A stretch of 64,000 bases of DNA. It comes from Candidatus Woesebacteria bacterium RBG_16_42_24 (lineage in GTDB: Bacteria; Patescibacteriota; Microgenomatia; UBA8517). This document shows positions 23,335-41,067 of this stretch, in pieces. The notes beneath the pieces are model-generated. The model had not been told where the DNA came from, made no database searches, and was given only the letters and a program-made list of their open reading frames with translations. Both the position numbers and the translations under genes were made by a program. Each line of letters opens with the position of its first letter. Positions within the stretch are counted from its first letter, which is position 1. The stretch is taken from assembly GCA_001792115.1 (NCBI GenBank), contig MGFX01000007.1, forward strand, positions 5,265-69,264, written 5' to 3'.

Positions 23335-23405
23335 GCGGGATTAGTTGAGCGGCTCAATACTACCTTCCCAAGGTAGGGAGACGGGTTCGACTCCCGTATC
23401 CCGCT
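23335..23405 (+). tRNA. tRNA-Gly (anticodon CCC)
   Basis: Acceptor GCGGGAT/ATCCCGC, anticodon stem CTACC/GGTAG with loop TTCCCAA, T-arm ACGGG-TTCGACT-CCCGT. Confidence 0.8.
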
Positions 23406-23465
23406 CACAAGCGGAATCCGCAGCCGCGAGTTCGTGCGGGTTAGGGTTTGGGGGGAAGAGTAGGA

Positions 23466-24857
23466 CTAGAGCTTTGTAACTTGCCCCTCGATTGCATCAA
23501 CAAGTACTTTATCTCCATTCTTTAGTAGGAAAGTTGCATTGTTGGTTCCGACCACACAAGGAATTCCAAATTCTCTCGCAATAATTGCAGCGTGGGAAGT
23601 AATCCCACCAGAATCTGTAACAATTGCGGCGGCCTTAGTCATTGCAACAACATATGCTGGCTGGGTCTGAAATGCAACAAGTATTTCTCCCTTTTTAAAT
23701 TCTTTTAAGTCATCGTAGACTTTAATTATTCTTACTCTTCCCTCAACTTTTCCTCGACAAGCAGCAGTTCCTTTGATTTCTTGAGTTTTTGGTCGCTTAC
23801 GTTTTATTAATTTTTGGATTTTTTTAAATTGTTTTTGGTCTTTGAAGTAATAGAAATGAAGTTTGCCTTTCTCTGGCCAGACCAGCCTCAATTGGTTATT
23901 GTACCTTTCTTCATATTTCCTTATCTTTTTTGGGTTTTCGCTTACTTCAATGAGCTCTTCAAAAGTCAAGTTTTGGATAATTCCTTCGACATAGTACATA
24001 CCCATCTTTTTCTTAAGATAATTTTTAAATAGGAAATCAAGTTCGACTTGCTTGTCCGCGGCCCGATTATCGTACGAGTTAATCTTAACAAAAGTATTTA
24101 TTAGGTTTTTATCCTTGGCTGAAACTTTATCAATAAACATGAGTTCTTTATTTTGTTCTTTCTCCTTAACTAAGCCTTTTAGCTGATCTAGAAAGCTTTG
24201 TGGACCCCAGGGCTTGAGTCCTCTTTCGCTTGTGCTTATCCAGCCGTAATTTTCTGTGTGTCTTACCAATAATATTTTGATTTTTGGATCCAATTCTTCA
24301 AAGTTAAAATCAACTTTCTCAAACTCTTTTTGGAAATTTTTGTAAATTTCTAAAAGGTTATTATTGCTTTCCGTTAATTTAGTTTCTGAAGAATTTTTAA
24401 GAATGTAATTTATAATATCTGCTTCTGGAACTGATTCCTCTTTTGAAATTTCGGAAACCCCATGAGGGATAATCTCGTCAAATACCAGTGAAACAGAGCT
24501 CATAAGAAGAGATAAATTTTCCTGTATTTTAATGTACTTTTTAGAATCAAATTTTTGGTCATTAAGTTCAAAAATTAGTTTATCAGCAGATACACAGATA
24601 TCTTCAAAATCTTTTAAGAGTTTTTTAGTCTTTTGGCTGTCTTTGAAAAAATCTCTAAATCTTTCTAGGATCTCAGCTTCTTTATAAAAATCCAGGTACT
24701 CATCCCCGAAGACAGGCACCTTGTATCCTAGATAAATTGGATATTTGCCAAAAGACATTGTCTTGGCAAAAAGAAGGTGAATATACCAATCCCATTGCCA
24801 AACGCCTCCCCTGGTCCAATAGCCTTTTTTGACTTTTCTAATAAAACTTTCAAGCAC
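23466..24857 (-). CDS. Orphan PEP-utilizer swivel (phosphohistidine) domain protein with an uncharacterised lysine-rich N-terminal ~360 aa
   Basis: The C-terminal ~100 aa (RVRIIKVYDDLKEFKKGEILVAFQTQPAYVVAMTKAAAIVTDSGGITSHAAIIAREFGIPCVVG) matches the mobile His domain of PEP synthase and PPDK. No ATP-grasp GGKGANL motif and no PEP-binding TIM barrel. Markedly AT-rich. Confidence 0.55.
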   Translation of the reverse strand: MLESFIRKVKKGYWTRGGVWQWDWYIHLLFAKTMSFGKYPIYLGYKVPVFGDEYLDFYKEAEILERFRDFFKDSQKTKKLLKDFEDICVSADKLIFELNDQKFDSKKYIKIQENLSLLMSSVSLVFDEIIPHGVSEISKEESVPEADIINYILKNSSETKLTESNNNLLEIYKNFQKEFEKVDFNFEELDPKIKILLVRHTENYGWISTSERGLKPWGPQSFLDQLKGLVKEKEQNKELMFIDKVSAKDKNLINTFVKINSYDNRAADKQVELDFLFKNYLKKKMGMYYVEGIIQNLTFEELIEVSENPKKIRKYEERYNNQLRLVWPEKGKLHFYYFKDQKQFKKIQKLIKRKRPKTQEIKGTAACRGKVEGRVRIIKVYDDLKEFKKGEILVAFQTQPAYVVAMTKAAAIVTDSGGITSHAAIIAREFGIPCVVGTNNATFLLKNGDKVLVDAIEGQVTKL

Positions 24858-24909
24858 AGTATGATTATACAGTGAGAATGTGGAATTTGGGTGGAGTTTA
24901 GCCTCTAAA

Positions 24910-25119
24910 GGGAGTAAAATGTGTCTTTAATTGTCCGCGCACGGGTTGGGCTTGCCCTAAAAATTGCGCATTCAATTTTCAGGGTGAAGGGCAAGGACAA
25001 TTTGTTCCTGTCTTAACGCGCGCAAAAAATAGCGGAGGCGAGGCTGTTAGGCCGAGCCGGAGCTGCGACAATTAGGGTGTGCGACAAAAGTTAGTTCGAG
25101 CTTTTTCAAAAACGAGCTC
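24910..25119. repeat. Intergenic repeat element, copy 1 (~210 bp)
   Basis: Near-identical blocks shared with 29666..29929: gggagt...cgcacggg, gaagggcaa.gacaatttgttcctgtcttaacgcgcgc, caaaaaat, agcggaggcgaggc, ggccgagccgg, ttcgaRctttttcaaaaacgagctc. Ends 5 nt before the GTG start of the 25125 gene. Confidence 0.7.
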
Positions 25120-25124
25120 CATAA

Positions 25125-25847
25125 GTGACAAAAATAAACATTAATGACAAAAAAGTTACAATAATGGATAATGGTTTTATGAATAAATACGTGGTGTTGC
25201 TTCGTAGTAACATATTTAAAATCACGACGCTTGTTTTGTTTCTGATTGTTCTTGTTGTCAGCTTTGTTAACATCAGCTTCCAGCAAAAACTTAAGGATAC
25301 AACCCAAAAATTGGCATTTAAAAGCGAGGAATATGAGCTGTGCATAGATGACAAAGCAAAAATAATAGAAGAATCTAAGCAAACTTATTCTCCTCAGGAA
25401 TTTAAGATTTCTTCTCCTTTGTTTGAAGGAAAAGAAATGACCGTAAAAATGTTGGGTTATAAAGGCACTGAGATAAAAGAGATGACAATTGATCTTCCGC
25501 AAAGTGATCAGCTGGGTCATCCGATTAATATTAAAGTCTGGGATTATATTAACGTTCCTAATCCAAAAATGGCAAGATTCGACCAGTATTACAATGCCTT
25601 TCCACTTTGGGCAGAAACAGTAAATGATAATCTGACAAATTATTTTACATATAAGACGACTAGTGGATTTTCTATGAATCGCGCTTGTGGAGAATTAACC
25701 ATTTCGAGAAGCATCACCAGCATTCACAGCATTTATGTATTGATATCAGGCTATCAATGTACTGGAATATTTCCAGGAAAAGAGGAAGAAACAATCAGGG
25801 AGTCAACAAAGTTTCTAGAGGAAGTAGCAGACACTATTAATTTTTAG
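25125..25847 (+). CDS. Hypothetical membrane-anchored protein
   Basis: 240 aa; TM helix at ~30-50 then a soluble domain without recognisable motifs. Very AT-rich. GTG start with no obvious RBS. The antisense ORFs in this region look like low-complexity artefacts. Confidence 0.4.
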   Translation: MTKININDKKVTIMDNGFMNKYVVLLRSNIFKITTLVLFLIVLVVSFVNISFQQKLKDTTQKLAFKSEEYELCIDDKAKIIEESKQTYSPQEFKISSPLFEGKEMTVKMLGYKGTEIKEMTIDLPQSDQLGHPINIKVWDYINVPNPKMARFDQYYNAFPLWAETVNDNLTNYFTYKTTSGFSMNRACGELTISRSITSIHSIYVLISGYQCTGIFPGKEEETIRESTKFLEEVADTINF

Positions 25848-25942
25848 CTTTACTCTAGCGTGGCAAAATCATCAACACCTAAGAGTTCTTTCAAGGCCAA
25901 AAGCTGAACACCCAACTCTGGTGTGATATACTTTGATAGGCT

Positions 25943-25966
25943 TGTCCTGAGTGAAATCGAAGGGTT
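25943..25966. repeat. Short repeat fragment (gtcctgagtgaaatcgaagggtt) related to motifs inside repeat copy 2
   Basis: Matches the inverted copy ccttcgatttcactcagga at 29794..29812 and the direct copy gtcctgagcgaagtcgagggg at ~29874..29894. Confidence 0.5.
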
Positions 25967-26022
25967 CGAGCCCAGTACGGTATCCAGCTCAAAACGTGAG
26001 TGTACGTGCGTAAACCAGGATT

Positions 26023-26793
26023 ATGCAGATAGATTTCTTCGAGGAGTTCCCCAACGATGATAGTTTATCTAAGTTGCGCATTATTAAATTTCGAACAAAT
26101 CTCTATGTCGCTGCTAAAAGTGTAAAAGAATTCTTAGTTTTAAAAACTAAAATTAAGAAGTTTTATAGAAATGTAGCCGAGGTAATTTACTGGCCTATTC
26201 TAGAGGTGAATGAAGGTTATTGGCTATCAGCATTCTCCAAAACATTGGCAATTAAGCGAATTCTAAACGAGCTTAAAAATACAAACGAGAAGTTCTCAGT
26301 ACTTTGGGATGCAGAACTGCCAATATTAGCTAAAGAACTTTTCGTGACTCAATTACCAAATTTCTTAAGAAATCGGAAAATTATAAAAAAAGTAACATTG
26401 CATCAAGACTCAAATCATCCTCTTATAATAACGGCATTTCCCAAAAGCGGAATAAATAAATTCTTCTCGAGTCTGGCGTGCACTTATTTTTCTTCTGGAA
26501 GTTTTCCCTATATCGATATGCTCTATACCTCTTTACTGAGGGTAAAAGATAAGTCTAGGTATGTACGTAGTGCCATAAAAAGAAATAAAAATAAATTTCA
26601 GGAATACTCTGTTGCACTTGGACTTATTGGGCGAGGGGTAGAAGATTACTCAACACCACTAATTTCTCCTCTTGGCTTAAAAATGGATTTAGGTATCGCA
26701 CAGAAAGAAGGGGTAAAAAATGTAGTACTTTATCGCCTAGGAGGCTTAAATAAAAATTATCTCGGAGTGCTTGAGGAATTTGTCAGTAAATAG
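26023..26793 (+). CDS. Hypothetical protein
   Basis: 256 aa, AT-rich, no recognisable motif. Confidence 0.4.
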   Translation: MQIDFFEEFPNDDSLSKLRIIKFRTNLYVAAKSVKEFLVLKTKIKKFYRNVAEVIYWPILEVNEGYWLSAFSKTLAIKRILNELKNTNEKFSVLWDAELPILAKELFVTQLPNFLRNRKIIKKVTLHQDSNHPLIITAFPKSGINKFFSSLACTYFSSGSFPYIDMLYTSLLRVKDKSRYVRSAIKRNKNKFQEYSVALGLIGRGVEDYSTPLISPLGLKMDLGIAQKEGVKNVVLYRLGGLNKNYLGVLEEFVSK

Positions 26794-26909
26794 CCCACAA
26801 AAAGTGTTAATTTATTAAGTTGTACTTTATTATGTATTTTTTAGTTCTAAAGCATAAACTAAATCAGGTAATAGGCCGTCTTGATAGAATAATCTGATAA
26901 AATCTAACT

Positions 26910-27386
26910 ATGATTAAAGATTTGAACAAACTAGCCAGGAAAATTATTCAGGAAAACCAATATGTAACAATTGCCACATCAGACAAAAATGGCAATCCTT
27001 GGATTTCTGCAGTGGTTTATGCATATGACAAAGACTGGAATTTTTATTTCATTTCAATCCCTTCATCTAAACACTGCCAGAACATAAAAAATAATAAAAG
27101 GGTTGTGGTTGCAATTTTCGATTCACATCAGCTTTTGGGTGAAGGAGTCGGTTTACAAATAGAGGGTGAAGCGATTATGGTGGATATTAAAGACACGCCT
27201 AAAGTAGCTACAATTTATTTTGGAAGAAAATACCCATATGGCAAGGTGGCGCATAATGCCGGTCAGTATATCAAAAGATTTATGAAGAAAGGAGAACTAT
27301 ACAGATTTTATAAAATTCGACAGACAACGTTTTGGATGAACGACCCAAATAGCAAAATTGATTTAAGAGTTGAAGTAAAATTATGA
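26910..27386 (+). CDS. Pyridoxamine 5'-phosphate oxidase-like FMN-binding split-barrel protein
   Basis: YVTIATSDKNGNPWISAVVY...NKRVVVAIFDSHQ pattern typical of the PNPOx/general-stress-protein-26 family. Paralogous to the 28102..28578 product. Confidence 0.55.
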   Translation: MIKDLNKLARKIIQENQYVTIATSDKNGNPWISAVVYAYDKDWNFYFISIPSSKHCQNIKNNKRVVVAIFDSHQLLGEGVGLQIEGEAIMVDIKDTPKVATIYFGRKYPYGKVAHNAGQYIKRFMKKGELYRFYKIRQTTFWMNDPNSKIDLRVEVKL

Positions 27387-28105
27387 ATATGGATTTTCAG
27401 AATAAAGTAGCAGTTATCACAGGAGCAAGTAGAGGACTTGGCAAAGAAATTGCGATACTTTTGGCTGAGCAAAAAGCCAAACTTGCACTGGTTTCCCGAT
27501 CAGAAAATGAGCTAAATAAAGTCAAAGAAGAAATTGGCCCCAATGCGGAATATTTTGTCTGCGATATTTCAAACTCAAAAGCAGTTGAGAAAACCATCGT
27601 TGAGATTCATCAAAAGTTCGGCAAAATAGACATTCTCATCAATAATGCCGGTATTTGGTTTGAGGGGCTAGCAGAAAAACACCCTCCAGAAAAGGTTAAA
27701 GAATTATTCGACGTAATCACGTTGGGAACTATTTATGTAACAACAAGCGTGCTACCAATTCTCAAAAAACAGGCTGAAGGGCAAATATTAAATGTCGTTT
27801 CTGTCGCAGGGATAGAAACTCCCGGAGCTGAAATGGGTCCTTACTCGCCGTATACTGCCGCAAAATATGCTGTAACCGGGTTCACGAAATCATTAGAGGA
27901 AGAACTCAAAGGGACAAAAATAAAAGTAATGGGAATTTATCCAGGCGGAATGAATACACCTCTATTCAAGAAAGCTGGTTTTGATTATACAGAAAACGAA
28001 AATTGGATGATGGATAAGAAAGATGTCGCCAAAATTATTTTATTCATGCTCTCACAACCAAAAGACGTAATTATTGACCACTTAGTTGTAAGAAAATTTA
28101 GTTAA
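27383..28105 (+). CDS. Short-chain dehydrogenase/reductase (SDR)
   Basis: TGASRGLG cofactor-binding motif, NNAG, and a YxxxK active-site region (YTAAKYAV). Confidence 0.8.
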   Translation: MNMDFQNKVAVITGASRGLGKEIAILLAEQKAKLALVSRSENELNKVKEEIGPNAEYFVCDISNSKAVEKTIVEIHQKFGKIDILINNAGIWFEGLAEKHPPEKVKELFDVITLGTIYVTTSVLPILKKQAEGQILNVVSVAGIETPGAEMGPYSPYTAAKYAVTGFTKSLEEELKGTKIKVMGIYPGGMNTPLFKKAGFDYTENENWMMDKKDVAKIILFMLSQPKDVIIDHLVVRKFS

Positions 28106-28578
28106 GCCTTCCAAATTCCGTATTCTTCAGGTGAATAAAGTTCTTTGTTGAAAAACTTTAAATACTTTGGGGTAATCTTCCAAACGTTAGTGTCAGCAAA
28201 TTTTATAACCTCCTTTATCGTTATCTCCTTTTCTACTCCAGGGTTTTGCTTATGCCAAAGTGCTAATGCCTTAGTTAGATTGATAATTCCTTTAACCTTC
28301 TCGATTGTGCCGGATCCTTGGAGCCCCTTCTTGGGTTCAAAAATCTTTTGGTGAGAATCGAAAATATTAAATGCGATTTTGTTGTTCTTAGTCATATCTT
28401 TGCCGTGAATTGAGTTCGGGTCGGTAACAATGTACAGATTCATATCTTTGTCAATTCCATAATAAACAGTGCAAACCCAAGGGCCTTTTGAGGATTGAGT
28501 AGCCAACGTCATGATTCCCTTCTTTTTAAGAAACTTGAAAATATCTTGCCCGATTAGAACGTTTGTTCTTTTACCCAT
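28102..28578 (-). CDS. Pyridoxamine 5'-phosphate oxidase-like FMN-binding protein (paralog of the 26910..27386 gene)
   Basis: IMTLATQSSKGPWVCTVYYGIDKDMNLYIVTDPNSIHGKDMTKNNKIAFNIFDSHQ aligns with the 26910 product. Start placed at the internal Met to avoid a 90-nt overlap with the pyrD-like gene. Confidence 0.5.
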   Translation of the reverse strand: MGKRTNVLIGQDIFKFLKKKGIMTLATQSSKGPWVCTVYYGIDKDMNLYIVTDPNSIHGKDMTKNNKIAFNIFDSHQKIFEPKKGLQGSGTIEKVKGIINLTKALALWHKQNPGVEKEITIKEVIKFADTNVWKITPKYLKFFNKELYSPEEYGIWKA

Positions 28579-28599
28579 CAAGGCTATAATATCACTGGA

Positions 28600-29664
28600 G
28601 TGAATAAATTCAAAATTGAACACTGGGTCTATAAAAATATTCTCAGGCCATATTTGTTTGCTATTGATTCCGAAAAAATCCACGACCAAATGATTAGGTT
28701 TGGGGAACTCACGGAAAATGCAGGCTGGTTTTTAGAAGCCCAATACTCATATAAAAGCGATAGGTTAAAAAGGTCGTTTTTAGATGTAGATTTTGAGAAT
28801 CCAGTGGGGCTTGCTGCCGGGTTTGACTACGATGGACATTTAGCCAAAACAATGAAACATCTCGGGTTTGGATTTAATACCATTGGCACAGTTACGGCTA
28901 AGCCTTACGGAGGTAACCAGAAGCCTAGGTTGCTAAGACTTGTGAAGTCTCGAGCGATTCTTGTAAACAAAGGCTTCAAGTCAGAAGGTGCGACCAAAGT
29001 GGCAAAAAGGCTAGACGCAAAAAATCTTCAAGGACACACTGTCGGAATCAGTGTCGGAAGCTCAAACATTCCAGAAGTGAACACAATTGACAAAGCGATC
29101 AATGACTATGTCTTTACTTTCAATGTTTTTAAAAACAAGCCTTACGTTAAATATTTTGAACTTAATATCAGTTGTCCTAACACAGCGATGACTGAGTCAT
29201 TTACTACACCACAAAATTTTGAAAAGTTGGTATCCGCCGTAAGTAAGCTGAATTTGAAGCAACCAATCTTTGTGAAAATGCCAAACGAAATAGTCAGTAA
29301 AGAAGCAGAAAGCTTAGTAAGAATTGGTTTGAGGTATAGAATAAATGGCTATATTTTCTCTAACCTTGTTAAGGATCGGGGAAATAAATACTTTGTAAAA
29401 AGCGAGATCGAAAAGATGGAAGGCTACAAAGGTAATTTTAGCGGGAAACCCTGCACGGAGAACTCTAACAAACTTCTGGCGCATGTTAAGACAAAGTTCG
29501 GTAATAAGGTTGTCCTGATTGGCCTTGGCGGAATTTTCAATGCGAAAGACGCAATCCAGATGTTTGAAAGTGGGGCCGATTTAGTACAACTTATAACAGG
29601 AATGATTTTTGAAGGACCTCAAATAGCAGGAGAGATAAATTATCAACTTTCTATTGGTAAGTAG
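28600..29664 (+). CDS. pyrD: Dihydroorotate dehydrogenase-like, class 2 (quinone-type) architecture
   Basis: N-terminal extension YKNILRPYLFAIDSEKIHD, ENPVGLAAGFDYDG, GFGFNTIGTVTAKPYGGNQKPRL, NISCPNT, and C-terminal LGGIFNAKDA...GADLVQLITGMIFEGPQI all match class-2 PyrD blocks. Confidence 0.7.
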   Translation: MNKFKIEHWVYKNILRPYLFAIDSEKIHDQMIRFGELTENAGWFLEAQYSYKSDRLKRSFLDVDFENPVGLAAGFDYDGHLAKTMKHLGFGFNTIGTVTAKPYGGNQKPRLLRLVKSRAILVNKGFKSEGATKVAKRLDAKNLQGHTVGISVGSSNIPEVNTIDKAINDYVFTFNVFKNKPYVKYFELNISCPNTAMTESFTTPQNFEKLVSAVSKLNLKQPIFVKMPNEIVSKEAESLVRIGLRYRINGYIFSNLVKDRGNKYFVKSEIEKMEGYKGNFSGKPCTENSNKLLAHVKTKFGNKVVLIGLGGIFNAKDAIQMFESGADLVQLITGMIFEGPQIAGEINYQLSIGK

Positions 29665-29665
29665 A

Positions 29666-29929
29666 GGGAGTGTGTTTAATATATTTTACGTTGGCACGCA
29701 CGGGCAGGGCTTGCACTAAAAAATTTCCGGAGGAATTTTTCAGCGTGAAGGGCAAAGACAATTTGTTCCTGTCTTAACGCGCGCGCAAAAAATCCTTCGA
29801 TTTCACTCAGGATAAATAGCGGAGGCGAGGCCACATTCGGCTTAGCTCAGTGTAAACTTGGCCGAGCCGGCGAAGTCCTGAGCGAAGTCGAGGGGAGCGA
29901 AGCGGTTCGAACTTTTTCAAAAACGAGCT
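29666..29929. repeat. Intergenic repeat element, copy 2 (~265 bp; carries extra internal segments relative to copy 1)
   Basis: Shares the blocks listed for copy 1. It also carries an internal imperfect inverted pair (ccttcgatttcactcagga ... tcctgagcgaagtcgagg) separated by ~60 nt. Confidence 0.7.
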
Positions 29930-29958
29930 CAAGTTATTAGTTGTGCTAAGCTAGGATT

Positions 29959-30678
29959 ATGAAGTTTAAGCTTGTTGATAAGAAGGCAGAGGCGAAGGGG
30001 ACGAAGTCTTTCTTTTGGGAACCTGACAAAAGGTTTGAATTCTTACCCGGACAGTATCTTTATTACACTCTTCCAAAGCTTGAGTTTCCGGATCCAAGAG
30101 GCGCTACGCGGCACTTTACTATTTCAGCCTCACCTACGGAATCTCCCCCCGTCAGGTTGACTACTAGGATTCGTGAGGAGTCTGGTTACAAAAAAACTTT
30201 AGATTCGCTACCAATTGGCAGTTTTGTTGAAGCAGAAGGCCCTGACGGAACTTTTATTTTAGATACTGGCGATGCGGGACCCCATATCTTTATTGCGGGA
30301 GGAATCGGCATTACTCCTTTCAGAAGCATGATTAAGTTTGTCCTTGACAAAAATCTGGGTTACGAGATGCATTTAATTTATTCAAACTCTCTTCCCGAGG
30401 AAATTGCTTTTAGAGAAGAGTTTGACCATTACGCTGACCTTATTCCCAATTTTAAGATTACCTCAACTGTGACTAAGAAAGACGAAATAAAAACGCCCTG
30501 GGTTGGACTGACCGGGAGAATTGATGTCAACTTAATTTCGAAGGTTGCAAGCTCTTACCAAAATCCCACATTTTGGGTTTGCGGTCCACCTCCGATGGTC
30601 GATGCGATAGAGAAAGCTCTTTCCGAGCTCAAAATCTCTTCGAGCCAAATAAGGACAGAAAAATTCACGGGTTATTAG
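29959..30678 (+). CDS. FAD/NAD(P)-binding ferredoxin-NADP reductase-like oxidoreductase
   Basis: RHFTIS (RxYS flavin motif), GGIGITPF, and a C-terminal VCGPPPM NAD-binding motif. No Cys cluster for a 2Fe-2S centre. Confidence 0.7.
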   Translation: MKFKLVDKKAEAKGTKSFFWEPDKRFEFLPGQYLYYTLPKLEFPDPRGATRHFTISASPTESPPVRLTTRIREESGYKKTLDSLPIGSFVEAEGPDGTFILDTGDAGPHIFIAGGIGITPFRSMIKFVLDKNLGYEMHLIYSNSLPEEIAFREEFDHYADLIPNFKITSTVTKKDEIKTPWVGLTGRIDVNLISKVASSYQNPTFWVCGPPPMVDAIEKALSELKISSSQIRTEKFTGY

Positions 30679-30716: not shown

Positions 30717-30788
30717 GCCGATGTAGCTCAATGGCAGAGCAGTCCCTTCGTAAGGGAAAGGTTAGGGGTTCAAGTCCTCTCATCGGCT
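30717..30788 (+). tRNA. tRNA-Thr (anticodon CGT)
   Basis: Acceptor GCCGATG/CATCGGC, D-arm GCTC-AATGGCA-GAGC, anticodon loop TTCGTAA, T-arm AGGGG-TTCAAGT-CCTCT. Confidence 0.85.
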
Positions 30789-30794
30789 CCCTAA

Positions 30795-37297: not shown

Positions 37298-37861
37298 ATG
37301 TTAGAGTATTTCGGGTTAAAAATCTGTGGTCTAACTCGCAAACTTCCCCTAATCCCCATTTCCAAGAACACCAAAATTGCTAGCTTTAACATTTTGGGGG
37401 ATGCAGAGCTGACCGAAAAAGTGGCTACTGAACTTTCAAAAAGACTAAAAAAATATAAATTTGATTATCTCGTGGGACCCGAAGTAAAGGTGGTTCCACT
37501 TATTCATGAACTGGCAACTAAATTAAGACACAAAAAATATGTAATATGCAGAAAGAGCGTCAAACCTTATATGGCCTCCCCAACTATTCTCAAGCCTCTT
37601 TCCCACTTCCCCAAACACGTAAGGCCCCTTGTTATTGACGGGGCTGATAAAGAAATGCTCTCTGGAAAAAAAGTTGTAATTGTAGACGATGTGGTCTCAA
37701 CCGGAGTAACGATAAGAATGATTAAATACCTGATGGATAAAATTGGAGCAAAGGTTGTGGCAACTGTTGCAATCATAAGGCAGGGAGAAAAACAATTTGA
37801 CGAAATTGAGAATTTTATTTACTTGGCCGAACTTCCAATTTTCAAAGAGACCACAATATAG
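37298..37861 (+). CDS. Type I phosphoribosyltransferase (purine/pyrimidine salvage PRTase)
   Basis: PRPP-binding motif KVVIVDDVVSTGVTI. Confidence 0.7.
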   Translation: MLEYFGLKICGLTRKLPLIPISKNTKIASFNILGDAELTEKVATELSKRLKKYKFDYLVGPEVKVVPLIHELATKLRHKKYVICRKSVKPYMASPTILKPLSHFPKHVRPLVIDGADKEMLSGKKVVIVDDVVSTGVTIRMIKYLMDKIGAKVVATVAIIRQGEKQFDEIENFIYLAELPIFKETTI

Positions 37862-37989: not shown

Positions 37990-39111
37990 TTGTGTTCGGG
38001 TTTTTTAGTTTTAATGAGTGTAGAATTTCGAGTTACCTCCGATTTTCGGGAACTTGCCGAAATAGCAGAAGCTAGAAACGCCTCTCCAGAATGGCGCGGA
38101 GTTTTAGAAATTAAGCCTTCAGTAAATAGAGTCTTCCGTCTTCGTGGAAGACCTCCCAATAAGGGTGATATAAACGACATCTACTACGACTTGGTAGATT
38201 TTTCCCAAATAACGATATCTTTTAATGAGCTTGCTCGGCGACTTTCACAAATGGCAGAGTTAGAAGGTACTTATTACCCTCTAGCCGAAAATTTCGCCCT
38301 TCGTGTCGCTCGAGATACAGGTCGTTACGAAAGAATCCCGGATTTTATAGATGCAGGCAAAGACCTGGTTGCTCACGCCGTCTGGTACTTATGGAGACCG
38401 GAAAGAGGGGAAGATTTTACAACCCTAAACAGTATAAATAAAGCTCAACTAAACAGGGCCCTAAAATCTTTTTGGTACCGCTCAAATTTCCACCAATCCT
38501 TCTCGGGCGTGGCAATCCATGAACTGCATACGGCCAAGCCTTTGGATGAAAATGACGCGACTGCCGTACGATCAAAGCCTAGAACAAGACTCAAGCAAGC
38601 CACTCTACATCTTTCTCTGCCCTCTGTTATCGCAACTGTTGATGAATGTGACCCGATCGAAAAGATAGCCTCCCTTGCCGTAATGGGATATTACCCCGAC
38701 GGGAGAGGGCTCATGGGAGTAGCCAAACAAATTAGGGTGGATCGAATCAAGTTGGGATACGCCTTAAACCGAGCGATTGAAAAACTTATACAGACTCGAA
38801 ACGGAGCAACTCCCGAAAGGTCAATTAGAGAAATTGTTGACGAGCTCCTACGAGACGGAAAATACCGCTACGCCTCCGGAGCAGCAGTGGTAAGAAACTC
38901 TCCGAGATACTTACTTCTAAGAATGAGGAAGTTACCCCAAGGACTATCTGAACCAGAAAGGAAAATCGTGGAATTAGCACTCATGAGAAACGGCAATACG
39001 CTCTTGTACTCTAACAATGAGGAAATAGGACAACAACTCGGAGTAGACAAGAATATGATTTTCAACGTAATCCGAAACGTCACGAGTAGTCTTCAGCAGG
39101 ATACACTTTAG
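37990..39111 (+). CDS. Hypothetical regulator with sigma-70 region-4-like C-terminal HTH
   Basis: The C-terminus (LSEPERKIVELALMRNGNTLLYSNNEEIGQQLGVDKNMIFNVIRNV) fits the sigma-70 region-4 / LuxR-type HTH pattern. N-terminal ~300 aa unrecognised. The real start may be the ATG at 38014 (MSVEFRV). Confidence 0.4.
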   Translation: MCSGFLVLMSVEFRVTSDFRELAEIAEARNASPEWRGVLEIKPSVNRVFRLRGRPPNKGDINDIYYDLVDFSQITISFNELARRLSQMAELEGTYYPLAENFALRVARDTGRYERIPDFIDAGKDLVAHAVWYLWRPERGEDFTTLNSINKAQLNRALKSFWYRSNFHQSFSGVAIHELHTAKPLDENDATAVRSKPRTRLKQATLHLSLPSVIATVDECDPIEKIASLAVMGYYPDGRGLMGVAKQIRVDRIKLGYALNRAIEKLIQTRNGATPERSIREIVDELLRDGKYRYASGAAVVRNSPRYLLLRMRKLPQGLSEPERKIVELALMRNGNTLLYSNNEEIGQQLGVDKNMIFNVIRNVTSSLQQDTL

Positions 39112-39242
39112 GAAAAACCTTGAGACTATCCTGCTGCAGTCTACCTTTTCTAGGTCCCGAAGGTAGAAAATCCTAGCAGCAAAAAGGAGGATTGCCCTTT
39201 TACAAATAGGGACCGCTTACACTCAAACTGGAGGAAGCAACA

Positions 39243-40259
39243 ATGTCTCGCAAATGGAGGGTCCTGTTCGTGCTGGGAATCCTGGCGGTACTTACTGCCG
39301 GATGCGGAGCCTCTGCTCAACCGCAAGCCCAGCCGCCTGTGCAGGTGGAGGTTATCGTTGTCTACCCTACTCCGATGCCTACCCAGATTCCTGCACCAAC
39401 AGCCGTACCGTTGAAGCTCGATGACACCCCTCGTATCGCCCTGATTTCTGCCTTTGACGGCGAACTCTACGCTTTCAGGGACGAGGGCAACATCGAGGAA
39501 ACCCTAGTCGTCGACGGCCGAACCGTGTACATGGGAACGCTTGCTGGGCACGACGTTCTCATGACGATCAGTGGGGTTTCGATGGTCAACGCAACGCAGG
39601 CGGTGACCACGCTGATCGAGCGGTTCAACATCACACACATCGTGTTTTCGGGTATAGCGGGCGGCGTCAACCCGGATCTTCGAATCGGCGACGTGGCTGT
39701 GCCTGCGAGGTGGGCTGAGTACCAAGAGAACTACTTCGCCCGAGAGACGTCCGGCGGCTTCGCTCCCCCGCCCTGGGTCACGCCGATAGCACCCAACTTC
39801 GGGATGATGTTTCCCAGCTGTCCCGATGTCGTTCTGCCAGGGTCTCCGCCCGACCTCGAGACTACGATGTGCTGGTGGAACGCCGACCCAACCATGCTCC
39901 AAGTCGCCCAACAGGTGGCCACCAGCATCGAGCTCGAACGGTGTGTCGATGCAGACCACTGTCTCAGTGAAACGCCGGTCGTCAGGGTCGGTGGAAACGG
40001 CGTAGCCGGGCCCACTTTCGTGGACAATGCGGAATACCGAAGCTATGTCTGGGACGTCTGGCGGGCTGACTCCCTGGACATGGAAAGCTCAGCCGTTGCC
40101 CACGTGGCTACCGACAAGCATGTTCCGTTCATCATCTTCCGGAGCCTCTCCGATCTTGCCGGAGGCGGCCCAGGAGAGAACGAGATCGGGACATTCTTCG
40201 GCATCGCGGCCACCAACAGCGCCAGGGTCATGCTCGCCTTCCTGGAAGCCTGGCCGTAA
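39243..40259 (+). CDS. Lipoprotein of the PNP/UDP phosphorylase family-1 (MTA/SAH nucleosidase-like), strongly GC-rich
   Basis: Lipobox LTAGC after a signal peptide; GHDVLMTISG, FSGIAGGV and DMESSAVAHVA match family-1 nucleoside phosphorylase/nucleosidase motifs. GGAGG RBS 7 nt upstream. 60-nt spot counts give ~63% GC, against ~35-45% for neighbouring genes. Confidence 0.65.
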   Translation: MSRKWRVLFVLGILAVLTAGCGASAQPQAQPPVQVEVIVVYPTPMPTQIPAPTAVPLKLDDTPRIALISAFDGELYAFRDEGNIEETLVVDGRTVYMGTLAGHDVLMTISGVSMVNATQAVTTLIERFNITHIVFSGIAGGVNPDLRIGDVAVPARWAEYQENYFARETSGGFAPPPWVTPIAPNFGMMFPSCPDVVLPGSPPDLETTMCWWNADPTMLQVAQQVATSIELERCVDADHCLSETPVVRVGGNGVAGPTFVDNAEYRSYVWDVWRADSLDMESSAVAHVATDKHVPFIIFRSLSDLAGGGPGENEIGTFFGIAATNSARVMLAFLEAWP

Positions 40260-40346
40260 GCACCGTACGGGGAAAGAAATTTAAGTCCCCAAAGGGGGGG
40301 TCGAAGTGGACAATCGTCCATCAGGCCCCCTCTGGTACTTTAAAAG

Positions 40347-40418
40347 TGGTCGCTGCAGGGATCGAACCTGCGACCTCTTCGATGTGAACGAAGCGCTCTA
40401 CCACTGAGCCAAGCGACC
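40347..40418 (-). tRNA. tRNA-Val (anticodon CAC)
   Basis: Minus strand: acceptor GGTCGCT/AGCGACC, anticodon stem CTTCG/CGAAG with loop TTCACAT, T-arm GCAGG-TTCGATC-CCTGC. Confidence 0.85.
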
Positions 40419-40500
40419 AATATGCATATTTTACCACGCCAGTGGGCCATTCTCATTTAACCCCTTGTAACTTAAGTTTGGACACGAATATAATTAATTC

Positions 40501-41067
40501 ATGTTTCTAAAACGTCTGGGAGCTTTTTTTTTGGACTTTTTGGAGGTAATTGTTTTTGCCGTAGCAATATTTCTTTTCTTTTATCTTCTGATCTTGCAAC
40601 CCCATAGAATTGACGGCAACTCCATGCAACCCAATTACCCAGACAACGAACTACTTTTGACCGACAAAGTAAGCTACAGATTCAATGAACCCCAGCGAGG
40701 TGATGTGATTGTTTTTGAAGCTACAGCACCAACCGATAAAGGAAAAGAATTCATTAAAAGAATAATGGGTTTACCCGGGGAGAGGATTATGGTAAAAGAC
40801 GGCCTTTTTTGGGTAAATGGAAAGGTAGTGAGAGAGGATTATTTAGCTTCCGGCACCCAAACCTTTTCAGGAGTTTTCCTTAAAGATGGGGAGGAAAAGG
40901 AAGTTCCAAGCGGAGAATACTTTGTCATGGGAGATAATCGTGGCTCCTCGTCCGATTCAAGAGCCTGGGGATTTGTTCCCAAGGAGGCTATTACCGGAAA
41001 GAGCTGGTTCATCTATTGGCCACCTAAAAACTTGGGAATAGTTGCAAAAGTTGAATATTCTATCTAA
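40501..41067 (+). CDS. lepB: Signal peptidase I
   Basis: TM helix, catalytic Ser box (DGNSMQPNY), RIMGLPGERI and GDNRGSSSDSR boxes. Confidence 0.85.
   Translation: MFLKRLGAFFLDFLEVIVFAVAIFLFFYLLILQPHRIDGNSMQPNYPDNELLLTDKVSYRFNEPQRGDVIVFEATAPTDKGKEFIKRIMGLPGERIMVKDGLFWVNGKVVREDYLASGTQTFSGVFLKDGEEKEVPSGEYFVMGDNRGSSSDSRAWGFVPKEAITGKSWFIYWPPKNLGIVAKVEYSI

What the first reader, a model, noticed from the sequence alone, without database searches (positions are those of the whole stretch)
26910..30678. Flavoprotein redox cassette with a class-2 pyrD-like gene in an organism that otherwise looks biosynthetically minimal
Five consecutive oxidoreductase genes lie on the island: a PNPOx-like gene, an SDR gene, a PNPOx-like paralog, a class-2 dihydroorotate dehydrogenase-like gene and an FNR-like FAD/NAD(P)H reductase gene. 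No other pyrimidine-pathway gene is in the window. CPR-type genomes usually lack de novo pyrimidine synthesis, so a lone quinone-type pyrD homolog more likely serves another redox role. It could be the DHODH-like enzyme plus FNR-like reductase acting as an electron sink or source, or a dihydropyrimidine/dihydrouracil-type reaction. The convergent and divergent layout with duplicated PNPOx genes suggests a small-molecule modification pathway.
Basis: inference. Interest (0 to 1): 0.55.

Follow-up and report, generated by a model that had tools for sequence, protein, structure and literature searches.

The report
Atypical pyrD-like redox gene pair
The five oxidoreductase genes are real, but only two or three belong together, and the "pyrD" is an unusual bacterial flavoenzyme with a rebuilt active site whose closest relatives are fused to a membrane protein that forms disulfide bonds, so it is probably a redox outlet and not a stray pyrimidine gene.

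Summary
Window 26910-30678 of a Candidatus Woesebacteria contig encodes PNPOx-like, SDR, PNPOx-like paralog, class-2-fold DHO_dh and FNR-like genes. No PyrB/C/E/F homolog lies in the 64 kb.

The five genes are not one conserved cassette.
- **Core pair:** the minus-strand PNPOx paralog plus the DHOD-like gene are adjacent in 20 of 21 assessable related loci. They share a conserved 21-nt divergent promoter spacer.
- **SDR:** one lies nearby in 5 of 9 well-flanked loci.
- **FNR-like and first PNPOx genes:** these travel along only in about 94%-identical relatives.

The DHOD-like protein passes NCBI's quinone-DHODH cut-offs and models as a class 2 DHODH (pLDDT 94.6, TM 0.82-0.88). Against E. coli PyrD, however, its active site is changed: Ser175→Cys, Lys66→Tyr, Thr247→Leu, and the Asn111 loop is one residue shorter. 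This signature is essentially fixed in 240 homologs from the candidate phyla radiation (CPR). In 120 of them the domain is fused behind a VKOR membrane domain with an intact CxxC.

My best reading (about 0.45) is a quinone/VKOR-linked flavoenzyme that serves as an electron outlet in cells without a respiratory chain. The main rival (about 0.3) is a respiration-independent true DHODH, like the fungal Cys-type Ura9. I found no paper describing this family. It is a new variant of a known kind.

The parts
28600..29664 (+). DHOD-like FMN enzyme with a class-2 fold and N-terminal helical 'quinone-tunnel' domain. Active-site signature: Tyr77 (for E. coli Lys66), V122-N123-K124-G125 (for N111-R-M-G), Cys192 (for Ser175), Leu256 (for Thr247).
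   Evidence: Pfam DHO_dh E 1.5e-53. NF003652 285.4 > 267. Residue-level alignments to PDB class 2 enzymes. Site mapping. AF2 pLDDT 94.6 with N-terminal helices 3-19, 24-37 and 42-49. Foldseek TM 0.82-0.88 to human, E. coli, A. baumannii and M. tuberculosis DHODH. The GTG start at 28600 is supported by the 354-aa GenBank version and by the conserved 21-nt spacer.
28102..28578 (-). PNPOx2: split-beta-barrel (PNPOx/FDOR-like, 'YhbP-like') protein of 158 aa. It is the conserved partner of the DHOD-like gene. Its cofactor is unresolved (flavin or heme).
   Evidence: PNPOx_N 28.9 bits. A homolog sits directly upstream of the DHOD-like gene in 20 of 21 assessable loci, divergent or co-directional. 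The family is restricted to CPR Microgenomates: Woese-, Beckwith- and Amesbacteria. AF2 pLDDT 87.5. Best PDB folds are HugZ-like heme binders and FMN/F420 binders, TM about 0.75.
28579..28599 (.). 21-nt divergent spacer CAAGGCTATAATATCACTGGA. TATAAT at 28585-28590 on the + strand overlaps TATTAT on the - strand. It lies 9 nt before the GTG and 7 nt before the ATG, which implies overlapping -10 boxes and leaderless or near-leaderless transcripts for both genes.
   Evidence: Sequence. Length and the core CTATAATATCAC are conserved in relatives whose proteins are only 70-94% identical (L095-L100, L102). The - strand match TTGAAT-16-TATTAT with TG was listed by the scan. Promoter function and leaderless starts are inferred.
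27383..28105 (+). Classical short-chain dehydrogenase/reductase, 240 aa. It is a frequent but replaceable neighbour.
   Evidence: adh_short E 4.8e-51. No NCBIfam equivalog cut-off is reached. An SDR lies within 2.6 kb of the DHOD-like gene in 5 of 9 loci with at least 2 kb on both sides. In the 94%-identical relatives it is a different SDR (33-34% identical) on the other strand.
26910..27386 (+). PNPOx1: second split-barrel paralog, 158 aa, whose stop overlaps the SDR start. It is linked only in close relatives, although L008 also has extra PNPOx copies.
   Evidence: PNPOx_N E 1.8e-12. 37.7% identity to PNPOx2 over 77 aa. Present in L095-L097 at 88-89% identity. L008 has three PNPOx_N genes plus an SDR divergent from DHO_dh.
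29959..30678 (+). Stand-alone FNR-like FAD/NAD(P)H reductase, 239 aa. It is adjacent but not part of the conserved unit.
   Evidence: NAD_binding_1 E 8e-19 and FAD_binding_6 E 7e-6. Best PDB relatives are reductase modules of nitrate reductase, MmoC and cytochrome b5 reductase. PyrK models score 32 bits against a cut-off of 224. Found near DHOD only in L096 and L120, at 63% identity and 1.5 kb further away. It lies beyond the G+C step at about 29.7 kb.

Best explanation
The pyrD-like gene encodes a flavoenzyme from a CPR-specific branch of the class-2 DHODH fold. It is not a left-over pyrimidine gene.

Shown:
- It keeps the FMN barrel and the N-terminal helical domain that in class 2 enzymes forms the quinone tunnel. 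His19, Arg102, Asn172, Asn177, Lys217 and Asn246 (E. coli numbering) are retained.
- The acid/base is Cys.
- The Lys that bridges FMN and the orotate carboxylate is Tyr.
- Thr247 is Leu.
- The Asn111 loop is one residue shorter.
- Its fixed genomic partner is the split-barrel protein PNPOx2, expressed from an overlapping divergent promoter and often accompanied by an SDR.
- In the sister branch the same catalytic domain is fused to the cytoplasmic end of a four-helix VKOR with an intact outward-facing CxxC.

Inferred:
- The enzyme sits at the membrane and exchanges electrons through its tunnel with a quinone-type or partner-bound carrier. That carrier is VKOR's quinone in the fused forms, and a carrier handled by PNPOx2 in this lineage.
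- It uses FMN plus Cys192 to reduce a cytoplasmic acceptor that is not, or not only, orotate.
- In a cell without a respiratory chain this would be the electron outlet that re-oxidises carriers such as the one VKOR needs for extracellular disulfide-bond formation.
- The acceptor itself is unknown. Fumarate-like enoates, or flavin via PNPOx2, are candidates.

The FNR-like gene and PNPOx1 are lineage-local neighbours.
For: - **Active site.** Residue-level alignments show NISCPNT where class 2 enzymes have NISSPNT, and FDYDGH where they have LDKxG. The signature Y/VNKG/C/L is present in 110-120 of 120 unfused homologs and 119-120 of 120 VKOR-fused homologs. In an NJ tree these form one clade (32/32), inside a CPR/DPANN clade (50/50) and apart from canonical class 2.
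- **VKOR fusion.** It is in frame in three independent genome contigs, with CxxC and a loop Cys pair. All 120 best hits of the fusion carry PF07884 + PF01180.
- **Gene linkage.** PNPOx2 is adjacent in 20 of 21 loci, with a conserved 21-nt spacer. An SDR is adjacent in 5 of 9. L008 shows the same set in a different chromosomal context.
- **No pyr context.** No pyr genes were found in the window or among the neighbours examined in related loci.
- **Literature.** VKOR and MdbA-like oxidoreductases are widespread in CPR (PMC6744442). The title of PMC7507113 says electron transport chains are ancestrally absent in Patescibacteria and DPANN (seen). A preprint reports that 93% of examined Patescibacteriota genomes lack de novo nucleotide synthesis (bioRxiv 10.64898/2026.06.21.733656).
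- **Established enzymology (my own knowledge).** Members of this fold that run reductively use Cys as the proton donor. Examples are the fumarate half-reaction of class 1A DHOD, dihydropyrimidine dehydrogenase and Dus.
Against: - The protein passes two curated 'equivalog' cut-offs for quinone-dependent DHODH. It retains four of the pyrimidine-ring contacts.
- Cys at the base position is compatible with real DHODH activity in fungal class II enzymes (PMC8520639).
- Some Flavobacteriaceae pyrD genes have Cys in an otherwise canonical site.
- The window protein itself has no VKOR domain, and no VKOR gene lies in the 64 kb. The VKOR link is therefore by family, not by locus.
- CPR are not known to make quinones.
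- No acceptor is identified.
- Losing the Lys near the flavin would, if anything, lower the flavin potential, which does not obviously favour electron uptake from a quinol.
- The whole-genome pyr inventory could not be checked.
Confidence: 0.45

Rival explanations
1. It is a genuine dihydroorotate dehydrogenase adapted to life without a respiratory chain. It would be a Cys-type class 2 enzyme like the fungal anaerobic Ura9 proteins, passing electrons to a flavin-type acceptor instead of the quinone pool. PNPOx2 would be that acceptor or flavin carrier, and the gene would serve de novo pyrimidine synthesis in the minority of CPR that have the pathway.
For: - It passes NF003652 and TIGR01036 cut-offs and has a class 2 fold at TM 0.82-0.88.
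- Asn172, Asn177, Asn246 and Lys217 are retained.
- Fungal class II DHODs with Cys at this position work anaerobically, and ArUra9 uses free FMN/FAD as acceptor (PMC8520639).
- A flavin-binding-fold partner is always adjacent.
- pyrD is often unlinked to other pyr genes in ordinary bacteria. Only 1 of the many canonical control loci (L042) had a pyr neighbour.
Against: - Lys66→Tyr, Thr247→Leu and the shortened Asn111 loop are fixed in 240 homologs. Those positions contact orotate and FMN in known enzymes (Lys100 is named in PMC12197698; the rest is my own knowledge).
- Fusion to VKOR, which is itself a quinone reducer, makes little sense for an enzyme that needs an oxidised acceptor.
- The family is widespread in a phylum where 93% of examined genomes are reported to lack de novo nucleotide synthesis.
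- No pyr gene was found among the neighbours examined in about 40 loci of this clade.
Confidence: 0.3
2. One reading: all five genes form one small-molecule modification pathway. Two PNPOx-type oxidases, an SDR, a DHOD-like desaturase and an FNR-like reductase would act in sequence on one metabolite.
For: - The five genes are contiguous, and the same order is deposited for sister Woesebacteria.
- PNPOx, SDR and DHOD recur together in L008, L113, L114 and L122.
Against: - FNR and PNPOx1 are absent from the neighbourhood outside the roughly 94%-identical relatives.
- The SDR is swapped for a 33%-identical one on the other strand in those same relatives.
- The FNR gene sits beyond a G+C step and a 294-nt gap.
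- No transporter, regulator or scaffold-forming enzyme is linked.
Confidence: 0.08
3. The DHOD-like and FNR-like proteins form a PyrD/PyrK-like two-protein dehydrogenase that couples the flavoenzyme to NAD(P)(H).
For: - The genes are adjacent and on the same strand.
- FNR-like modules are the partners of class 1B DHOD (established knowledge).
- There are weak PyrK model hits.
Against: - PyrK models score 32 and 16 bits against cut-offs of 224 and 219, and there is no Fe-S motif.
- FNR is near the DHOD-like gene in 1 of 9 well-flanked loci.
- Its identity to the L096 copy (63%) is far below that of DHOD (94%), so the two genes do not share history.
Confidence: 0.05
4. There is no common function. 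The region would be a low-G+C patch of unrelated stress or detoxification oxidoreductases (general-stress-protein-26-like PNPOx proteins, SDR, FNR) that happens to sit next to an annotated pyrD.
For: - PNPOx-like proteins of this size are often annotated as general stress proteins.
- Neighbourhoods of the DHOD-like gene differ in Blackburnbacteria (FAD oxidoreductase, glycosyltransferases) and in L006 (glmS).
Against: - PNPOx2-DHOD adjacency in 20 of 21 loci spans protein identities from 94% down to 56%, and both orientations.
- The divergent spacer is conserved.
- The PNPOx2 family appears restricted to the same CPR lineages.
Confidence: 0.1

Closest known systems
Class 2 (quinone-dependent) dihydroorotate dehydrogenase, PyrD (E. 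coli 1F76, human 1D3G)
   Same: - FMN TIM barrel plus an N-terminal helical tunnel domain.
- 27-30% identity, and TM 0.82-0.88 for the model.
- His19, Arg102, Asn172, Asn177, Lys217 and Asn246 equivalents are kept.
- It passes the NCBIfam cut-offs.
   Different: - The catalytic Ser is Cys.
- Lys66/Lys100 is Tyr.
- Thr247 is Leu.
- The Asn111-Arg-Met-Gly loop is Val-Asn-Lys-Gly, so the Asn is shifted by one residue.
- The host phylum is described in the literature as lacking electron transport chains, and CPR are not known to make quinones.
- No pyrimidine gene context was seen.
Fungal anaerobic class II DHODs with an active-site Cys (ArUra9, SjUra9, DbUra9; PMC8520639)
   Same: - Class 2 scaffold with Cys at the base position.
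- Activity independent of respiration.
- One of them uses free flavins as acceptor. This parallels an adjacent flavin-fold partner here.
   Different: - The fungal enzymes are proven DHODs.
- I did not see evidence that they carry the Lys→Tyr, Thr→Leu and loop changes.
- ArUra9 lacks the N-terminal domain, which is retained here.
- No VKOR fusions are known for them.
VKOR-DHO_dh fusion proteins of CPR (for example Candidatus Pacebacteria; P0121-P0240), annotated only as 'dihydroorotate dehydrogenase (quinone)' or hypothetical
   Same: - The same catalytic-domain clade and the same Y/VNKG/C/L signature.
- 42-43% identity to the window protein.
   Different: - The window protein has no VKOR domain and instead has PNPOx2 as its fixed neighbour.
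- In the loci examined, the fused genes have a class I methyltransferase upstream (four loci) and a VIT1 gene downstream (three loci).
Class 1A/1B DHOD and dihydropyrimidine dehydrogenase (PreA/DPD)
   Same: - Cys as the acid/base next to FMN.
- The ability of these enzymes to run the site reductively (fumarate, orotate, uracil).
   Different: - Global sequence similarity is low (TIGR01037 72 bits against 270; PreA 24 against 335).
- These enzymes have no N-terminal tunnel domain.
- The class 1B partner PyrK carries a 2Fe-2S cluster that the FNR-like protein here lacks.
PNPOx / FDOR split-barrel superfamily (PdxH, YhbP, HugZ/HutZ, Rv1155-type F420 enzymes)
   Same: Fold of PNPOx1 and PNPOx2 (Pfam PNPOx_N; Foldseek TM about 0.75).
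   Different: - No equivalog model is reached (pdxH 16.5 bits against 180; YhbP 39.8 against 176).
- The cofactor cannot be assigned.
- The PNPOx2 family is confined to CPR and tied to the DHOD-like gene.

Membership tests
Class 2 quinone-dependent DHODH (PyrD) | DHO_dh FMN barrel that scores above the curated family cut-offs | tested here: met
   PF01180 E 1.5e-53. NF003652 285.4 > 267 and TIGR01036 217.2 > 200.
Class 2 quinone-dependent DHODH (PyrD) | N-terminal helical extension that forms the quinone tunnel and membrane anchor | tested here: met
   The alignment starts at E. coli residue 2. Model helices 3-19, 24-37 and 42-49 have pLDDT 89-94. Full-length Foldseek alignments. His19 and Arg102 equivalents are conserved.
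Class 2 quinone-dependent DHODH (PyrD) | Serine as catalytic base (E. coli Ser175, human Ser215) | tested here: not met
   Cys192 in NISCPNT. Cys in 240 of 240 homologs.
Class 2 quinone-dependent DHODH (PyrD) | Conserved orotate/FMN contacts Lys66, Asn111 and Thr247 (E. coli numbering) | tested here: not met
   Tyr, Val (with the Asn shifted by one residue) and Leu respectively. This is fixed across both the unfused and the fused families.
Class 2 quinone-dependent DHODH (PyrD) | Conserved ring contacts Asn172, Asn177 and Asn246, and FMN Lys217 | tested here: met
   All four are present in 240 of 240 homologs.
Class 2 quinone-dependent DHODH (PyrD) | Part of a complete de novo pyrimidine pathway in the same genome | not testable with these tools
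   No pyr genes lie in the 64-kb window. The rest of the genome could not be fetched.
Class 2 quinone-dependent DHODH (PyrD) | Dihydroorotate:quinone oxidoreductase activity | not testable with these tools
   This needs an enzyme assay or complementation.
Class 1B DHOD with PyrK electron-transfer subunit | Class 1 PyrD sequence plus an adjacent FAD/2Fe-2S PyrK | tested here: not met
   TIGR01037 72 bits against 270. PyrK models 32 against 224 and 16 against 219. No Fe-S motif in the FNR-like protein. FNR linkage is not conserved.
CPR VKOR-DHO_dh fusion family | N-terminal VKOR domain with CxxC fused to the DHOD-like domain | tested here: not met
   The window protein starts directly with the tunnel helices. 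There is no VKOR match in the window at E <= 0.01.
CPR VKOR-DHO_dh fusion family | Catalytic-domain signature Tyr / Val-Asn-Lys-Gly / Cys / Leu, and common ancestry | tested here: met
   The signature is shared. One NJ clade, 32 of 32.
Pyridoxamine 5'-phosphate oxidase (PdxH) | PdxH equivalog score and C-terminal dimerisation region | tested here: not met
   TIGR00558 16.5 bits against 180 for PNPOx1, and no hit for PNPOx2. Only the generic PNPOx_N fold is matched.
Classical SDR | adh_short Rossmann domain above threshold | tested here: met
   E 4.8e-51. No substrate-specific equivalog is reached.

The most novel reading that the evidence does not exclude
CPR bacteria have turned the class 2 DHODH scaffold into the missing electron outlet of their VKOR/MdbA disulfide-bond-forming system.

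In the fused proteins, electrons would pass from extracellular thiols through VKOR's CxxC and a bound quinone-type carrier. They would then enter the tunnel of the cytoplasmic DHOD-like domain and leave through FMN/Cys onto a cytoplasmic acceptor. This would be a self-contained transmembrane redox wire in cells that have no respiratory chain.

The Woesebacteria gene in this window would be the unfused version of that outlet. It would work with the split-barrel protein PNPOx2 (and an SDR) instead of a covalently attached VKOR.
Probability: 0.25. Interest if true: 0.8.

Novelty: new variant of a known kind. Interest (0 to 1): 0.62.

Why it matters
Databases name hundreds of these CPR proteins 'quinone-dependent dihydroorotate dehydrogenase'. 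If that name is wrong, metabolic reconstructions that count pyrD as evidence for pyrimidine synthesis or for quinone use in CPR are misled.

CPR are rich in VKOR and MdbA-like proteins used to fold pilins and other surface proteins. They are described as lacking electron transport chains, and they are not known to make quinones, so nobody knows what re-oxidises VKOR. A flavoenzyme that is fused to VKOR in many lineages is a concrete, testable candidate.

If the protein is instead a true DHODH, it would be a bacterial counterpart of the fungal respiration-independent class II enzymes. Its acceptor partner (PNPOx2) would then be identifiable by gene linkage.

Tried and rejected
1. **Whole-genome pyr check.** This was not possible. 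Only ±10 kb around hits can be fetched, and the single genome-contig scan was consumed.
2. **Carbamoyltransferase in L012.** The carbamoyltransferase 5 kb from the fused gene looked like pyrB by tblastn. It is an ornithine carbamoyltransferase inside an argH/argE cluster, so I rejected it as a pyrimidine link.
3. **Adenine-PRT-like gene.** The gene at 37298-37861 is not pyrE.
4. **Promoter and terminator scan.** The scan of 25.8-30.9 kb found no more sites than shuffles give. Only the conserved 21-nt spacer is worth keeping.
5. **Rfam.** It found only tRNAs, and nothing in the 294-nt gap 29665-29958.
6. **PNPOx proteins against PDB sequences.** These searches gave nothing significant. The fold search could not decide between heme, FMN and F420 binders.
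7. **Methyltransferase upstream of the VKOR fusions.** It hits UbiG/UbiE only weakly (27-36 bits against a cut-off of 103) and hits CmoB equally well. I do not use it as quinone evidence.
8. **Literature.** I found no paper combining DHODH with CPR, or VKOR with DHODH in a bacterial context. Castelle 2018 is not held.
9. **Other neighbours of the DHOD-like gene.** These include an FAD oxidoreductase in Blackburnbacteria, glmS, Zip/Fur, PIN and G6PD/cupin. They gave no consistent theme.

Full report
**1. What is there.**

| Gene | Coordinates | Strand | Match |
|---|---|---|---|
| PNPOx1 | 26910-27386 | + | PNPOx_N, E 1.8e-12 |
| SDR | 27383-28105 | + | adh_short, E 4.8e-51 |
| PNPOx2 | 28102-28578 | - | PNPOx_N, 28.9 bits, just above the cut-off |
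| DHOD-like | 28600-29664 | + | DHO_dh, E 1.5e-53 |
| FNR-like | 29959-30678 | + | FAD_binding_6 + NAD_binding_1 |

The two PNPOx genes are distant paralogs, 37.7% identical over 77 aa. Exact-sequence look-up places the window in Candidatus Woesebacteria, a CPR lineage (Microgenomates). The five proteins are GenBank OGM15147-OGM15151, and the DHOD-like one is named 'dihydroorotate dehydrogenase (quinone)'. tblastn with E. coli PyrB, PyrC, PyrE and PyrF finds nothing in the 64 kb, even at E <= 1. The one phosphoribosyltransferase is adenine-PRT-like.

**2. Which genes belong together.**
I collected 33 related metagenome loci and several long-contig neighbourhoods.
- **PNPOx2.** A homolog lies directly upstream of the DHOD-like gene in 20 of the 21 loci where upstream sequence exists. 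It is divergent in the relatives at 55-94% DHOD identity and co-directional in L112-L116 and L122. L008, at 59% identity and in a thrS/infC/pheST context, shows PNPOx, PNPOx, SDR and PNPOx divergent from DHO_dh.
- **SDR.** One lies within 2.6 kb in 5 of the 9 loci that have at least 2 kb on both sides. In the 94%-identical relatives, however, it is a different SDR (33-34% identity) on the other strand.
- **FNR-like gene.** It is nearby in only 1 of those 9 loci, again in the 94% relatives. There it is 1.5 kb further away and only 63% identical. In the window it lies beyond a G+C step and a 294-nt gap.
- **Other lineages.** Blackburnbacteria have an FAD oxidoreductase overlapping the DHOD start, and L006 has glmS there.

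The conserved unit is therefore PNPOx2 + DHOD-like, usually with an SDR. It is not a five-gene cassette.

**3. The divergent spacer.**
The 21 nt between the two start codons (28579-28599, CAAGGCTATAATATCACTGGA) keep their length and the core CTATAATATCAC in relatives whose proteins are only 70-94% identical. TATAAT on the + strand (28585-28590) overlaps TATTAT on the - strand. These lie 9 and 7 nt from the respective start codons. I infer overlapping -10 boxes and leaderless transcripts, which means joint control of the two genes. The spacer also fixes the start codons (GTG 28600, ATG 28578).

**4. What the DHOD-like protein is.**
By global sequence and fold it is class 2.
- It passes NF003652 (285.4 > 267) and TIGR01036 (217.2 > 200), while class 1 models score 72 against 270.
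- The AF2 model has pLDDT 94.6 and three N-terminal helices.
- The best PDB matches are human, E. coli, A. baumannii, H. pylori and M. tuberculosis class 2 DHODHs, at TM 0.82-0.88.

The active site is not class 2. In the printed alignments the motif NISCPNT stands where class 2 enzymes have N(I/V)SSPNT, so the catalytic Ser (E. coli 175, human 215) is Cys192. FDYDGH stands where they have (L/F)DKxG, so Lys66/Lys100 is Tyr77.

Mapping onto E. coli PyrD adds Thr247→Leu256 and the loop I-N111-R-M-G-F→L-V-N-K-G-F, in which the Asn is displaced by one residue. His19, Arg102, Asn172, Asn177, Lys217 and Asn246 are kept.

Across 120 unfused homologs, Cys is 120/120, Tyr 110/120 (the rest Trp or Asn), Leu 119/120 and VNKG 113-120/120. 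Lys100 is listed as a residue that mediates the dihydroorotate-FMN interaction in PMC12197698. The roles of Asn111 and Thr247 rest on my knowledge of the published structures.

**5. Relatives.**
The genome scan, although biased, sorted relatives into four groups:
- **Group A:** the window type, found in CPR.
- **Group B:** found in other CPR and in DPANN archaea. Lys is kept, with Cys, Leu and a V-[YNHW]-[YVL]-G-L loop.
- **Group C:** canonical class 2 enzymes (Bacteroidota and others).
- **Group D:** canonical residues but Cys, found in some Flavobacteriaceae.

An NJ tree puts all of A in one clade (32/32), nested with B in a CPR/DPANN clade (50/50) and apart from C and D.

**6. The VKOR fusion.**
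In three group-A genome loci (L011, L012, L013) the DHOD-like domain continues in frame from an N-terminal VKOR domain (PF07884, E 1e-21 to 1e-23). The VKOR part has a loop Cys pair and a CxxC at the start of the last helix. A search with the L013 protein returned 120 best hits at 52-100% identity. All carry PF07884 + PF01180, and they come from Pacebacteria and other Patescibacteria. All have the CxxC and the same Tyr/VNKG/Cys/Leu signature.

Reading the sequence with the positive-inside rule gives four helices, with the Cys pairs outside and the DHOD-like domain inside. This topology is inferred.

Méheust et al. report that VKOR and MdbA-like thiol-disulfide oxidoreductases are widespread in CPR and often adjacent (PMC6744442). 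The title of PMC7507113 says electron transport chains are ancestrally absent in Patescibacteria and DPANN (seen).

VKOR passes electrons from thiols to a quinone, and a canonical class 2 DHODH also reduces quinone. A fusion of the two makes functional sense only if the DHOD-like domain takes electrons from the carrier and hands them to a cytoplasmic acceptor. Enzymes of this fold that run reductively use Cys as the proton donor (the fumarate half-reaction of class 1A, dihydropyrimidine dehydrogenase, Dus; established knowledge). Orotate is a poor acceptor thermodynamically (about -250 mV; my knowledge), and the pocket is rebuilt, so I infer a different acceptor.

**7. The partner.**
PNPOx2 belongs to a small CPR-only family (88 hits; Woese-, Beckwith- and Amesbacteria). 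Its model (pLDDT 87.5) is a split barrel. The nearest solved folds are HugZ-type heme binders, MSMEG_6519 and At3g03890, followed by FMN and F420 binders, at TM about 0.75. The cofactor cannot be called.

**8. The main rival.**
Bouwknegt et al. showed that fungal class II DHODs with Cys at the base position support anaerobic, respiration-independent pyrimidine synthesis. One of them uses free FMN/FAD as acceptor (PMC8520639). A CPR counterpart with PNPOx2 as its flavin-type acceptor is a serious alternative, and the protein does pass NCBI's cut-offs.

Four points count against it:
- the fixed loss of Lys66, Thr247 and the Asn111 register;
- the VKOR fusion;
- the absence of any pyr neighbour among those examined in about 40 clade loci;
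- the reported lack of de novo nucleotide synthesis in 93% of examined Patescibacteriota genomes.

I could not check the rest of this genome.

**9. Verdict.**
The 'other redox role' and 'electron sink' ideas gain support from the active site and the fusion. The five-gene pathway and the DHOD-FNR pairing do not.

I rate the quinone/VKOR-linked outlet reading at about 0.45, the true respiration-independent DHODH at about 0.3, and the rest lower. I found no paper describing this family, its active-site signature or the VKOR fusion. It is a new variant of a known kind, with interest 0.62.

Noticed in passing
L011:9341-11101, L012:7697-9250, L013:835-2415; proteins P0121-P0240: A widespread CPR protein architecture: an N-terminal VKOR domain (with CxxC and a loop Cys pair) fused to the DHOD-like domain, about 525 aa in total. 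All 120 best hits have both Pfam domains. Databases call it DHODH (quinone) or hypothetical.
   Followed up: partly
L128:7218-7958, L129:7191-7949, L130:7225-7989, L013:59-838 (with L128:9557-10081 and L128:5301-7157): The VKOR-DHOD fusion gene has a class I SAM methyltransferase immediately upstream in four loci, abutting or overlapping its start. Its best but weak hits are UbiG/UbiE and CmoB. In three of those loci a VIT1 iron-transporter-like gene converges downstream and an Elp3 radical SAM gene diverges upstream.
   Followed up: partly
L017-L031, L033, L034, L040, L041, L059, L061: A second divergent DHOD-like group occurs in other CPR and in DPANN archaea (Woese-, Pace- and Nanoarchaeota). 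It has Lys kept, Cys, Leu and a V-[YNHW]-[YVL]-G-L loop. No pyr genes lie nearby. DoxX/DoxD membrane proteins are neighbours in 2 of 18 loci.
   Followed up: partly
L043, L049, L068, L069, L072, L076, L082 (Flavobacteriaceae); L032, L053, L063, L074, L087: Otherwise canonical class 2 PyrD sequences (INRMGF, Lys, NT[ST]) that carry Cys instead of the catalytic Ser. The Ser rule for bacterial class 2 enzymes therefore has natural exceptions. The sample is biased by the search pattern YFELNISC.
   Followed up: no
window 28579-28599: A conserved 21-nt divergent spacer with overlapping TATAAT/TATTAT boxes 7-9 nt from both start codons. This suggests two leaderless transcripts from one palindromic -10 region.
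   Followed up: partly
L095:5068-5631, L096:6768-7496, L097:6933-7496 versus window 27383-28105: In relatives whose DHOD and PNPOx genes are about 94% identical, the SDR between PNPOx1 and PNPOx2 is a different gene (33-34% identity) on the opposite strand. The gene was replaced, but an SDR is still kept at that spot.
   Followed up: partly
window 23400-29700: A low-G+C stretch (0.355-0.39 against about 0.42) with reversed GC skew lies between tRNA-Gly (23335-23406) and tRNA-Thr (30717-30790). It holds a 463-aa protein with only the PEP-utilizers mobile domain (23466-24857), two proteins without any family match (25125-25847, 26023-26793) and the redox genes. I saw no integrase. The content is syntenic in L096.
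   Followed up: partly
window 29665-29958: A 294-nt G+C-richer gap between the DHOD-like and FNR-like genes, with no ORF of 60 aa or more, no Rfam match and no terminator-like site. In L096 the corresponding gap holds a PIN-domain gene and a small ORF.
   Followed up: partly
window 38000-41000: G+C rises to 0.50-0.52 over about 3 kb. The stretch covers a 373-aa ORF without family match (37990-39111) and a 338-aa MTA/SAH-nucleosidase-like ORF (39243-40259) whose match to the family is split into two stretches.
   Followed up: no
L106:3910-5031: A ZIP zinc transporter gene and a Fur-family regulator gene sit directly beside the PNPOx2/DHOD-like pair in one relative.
   Followed up: no
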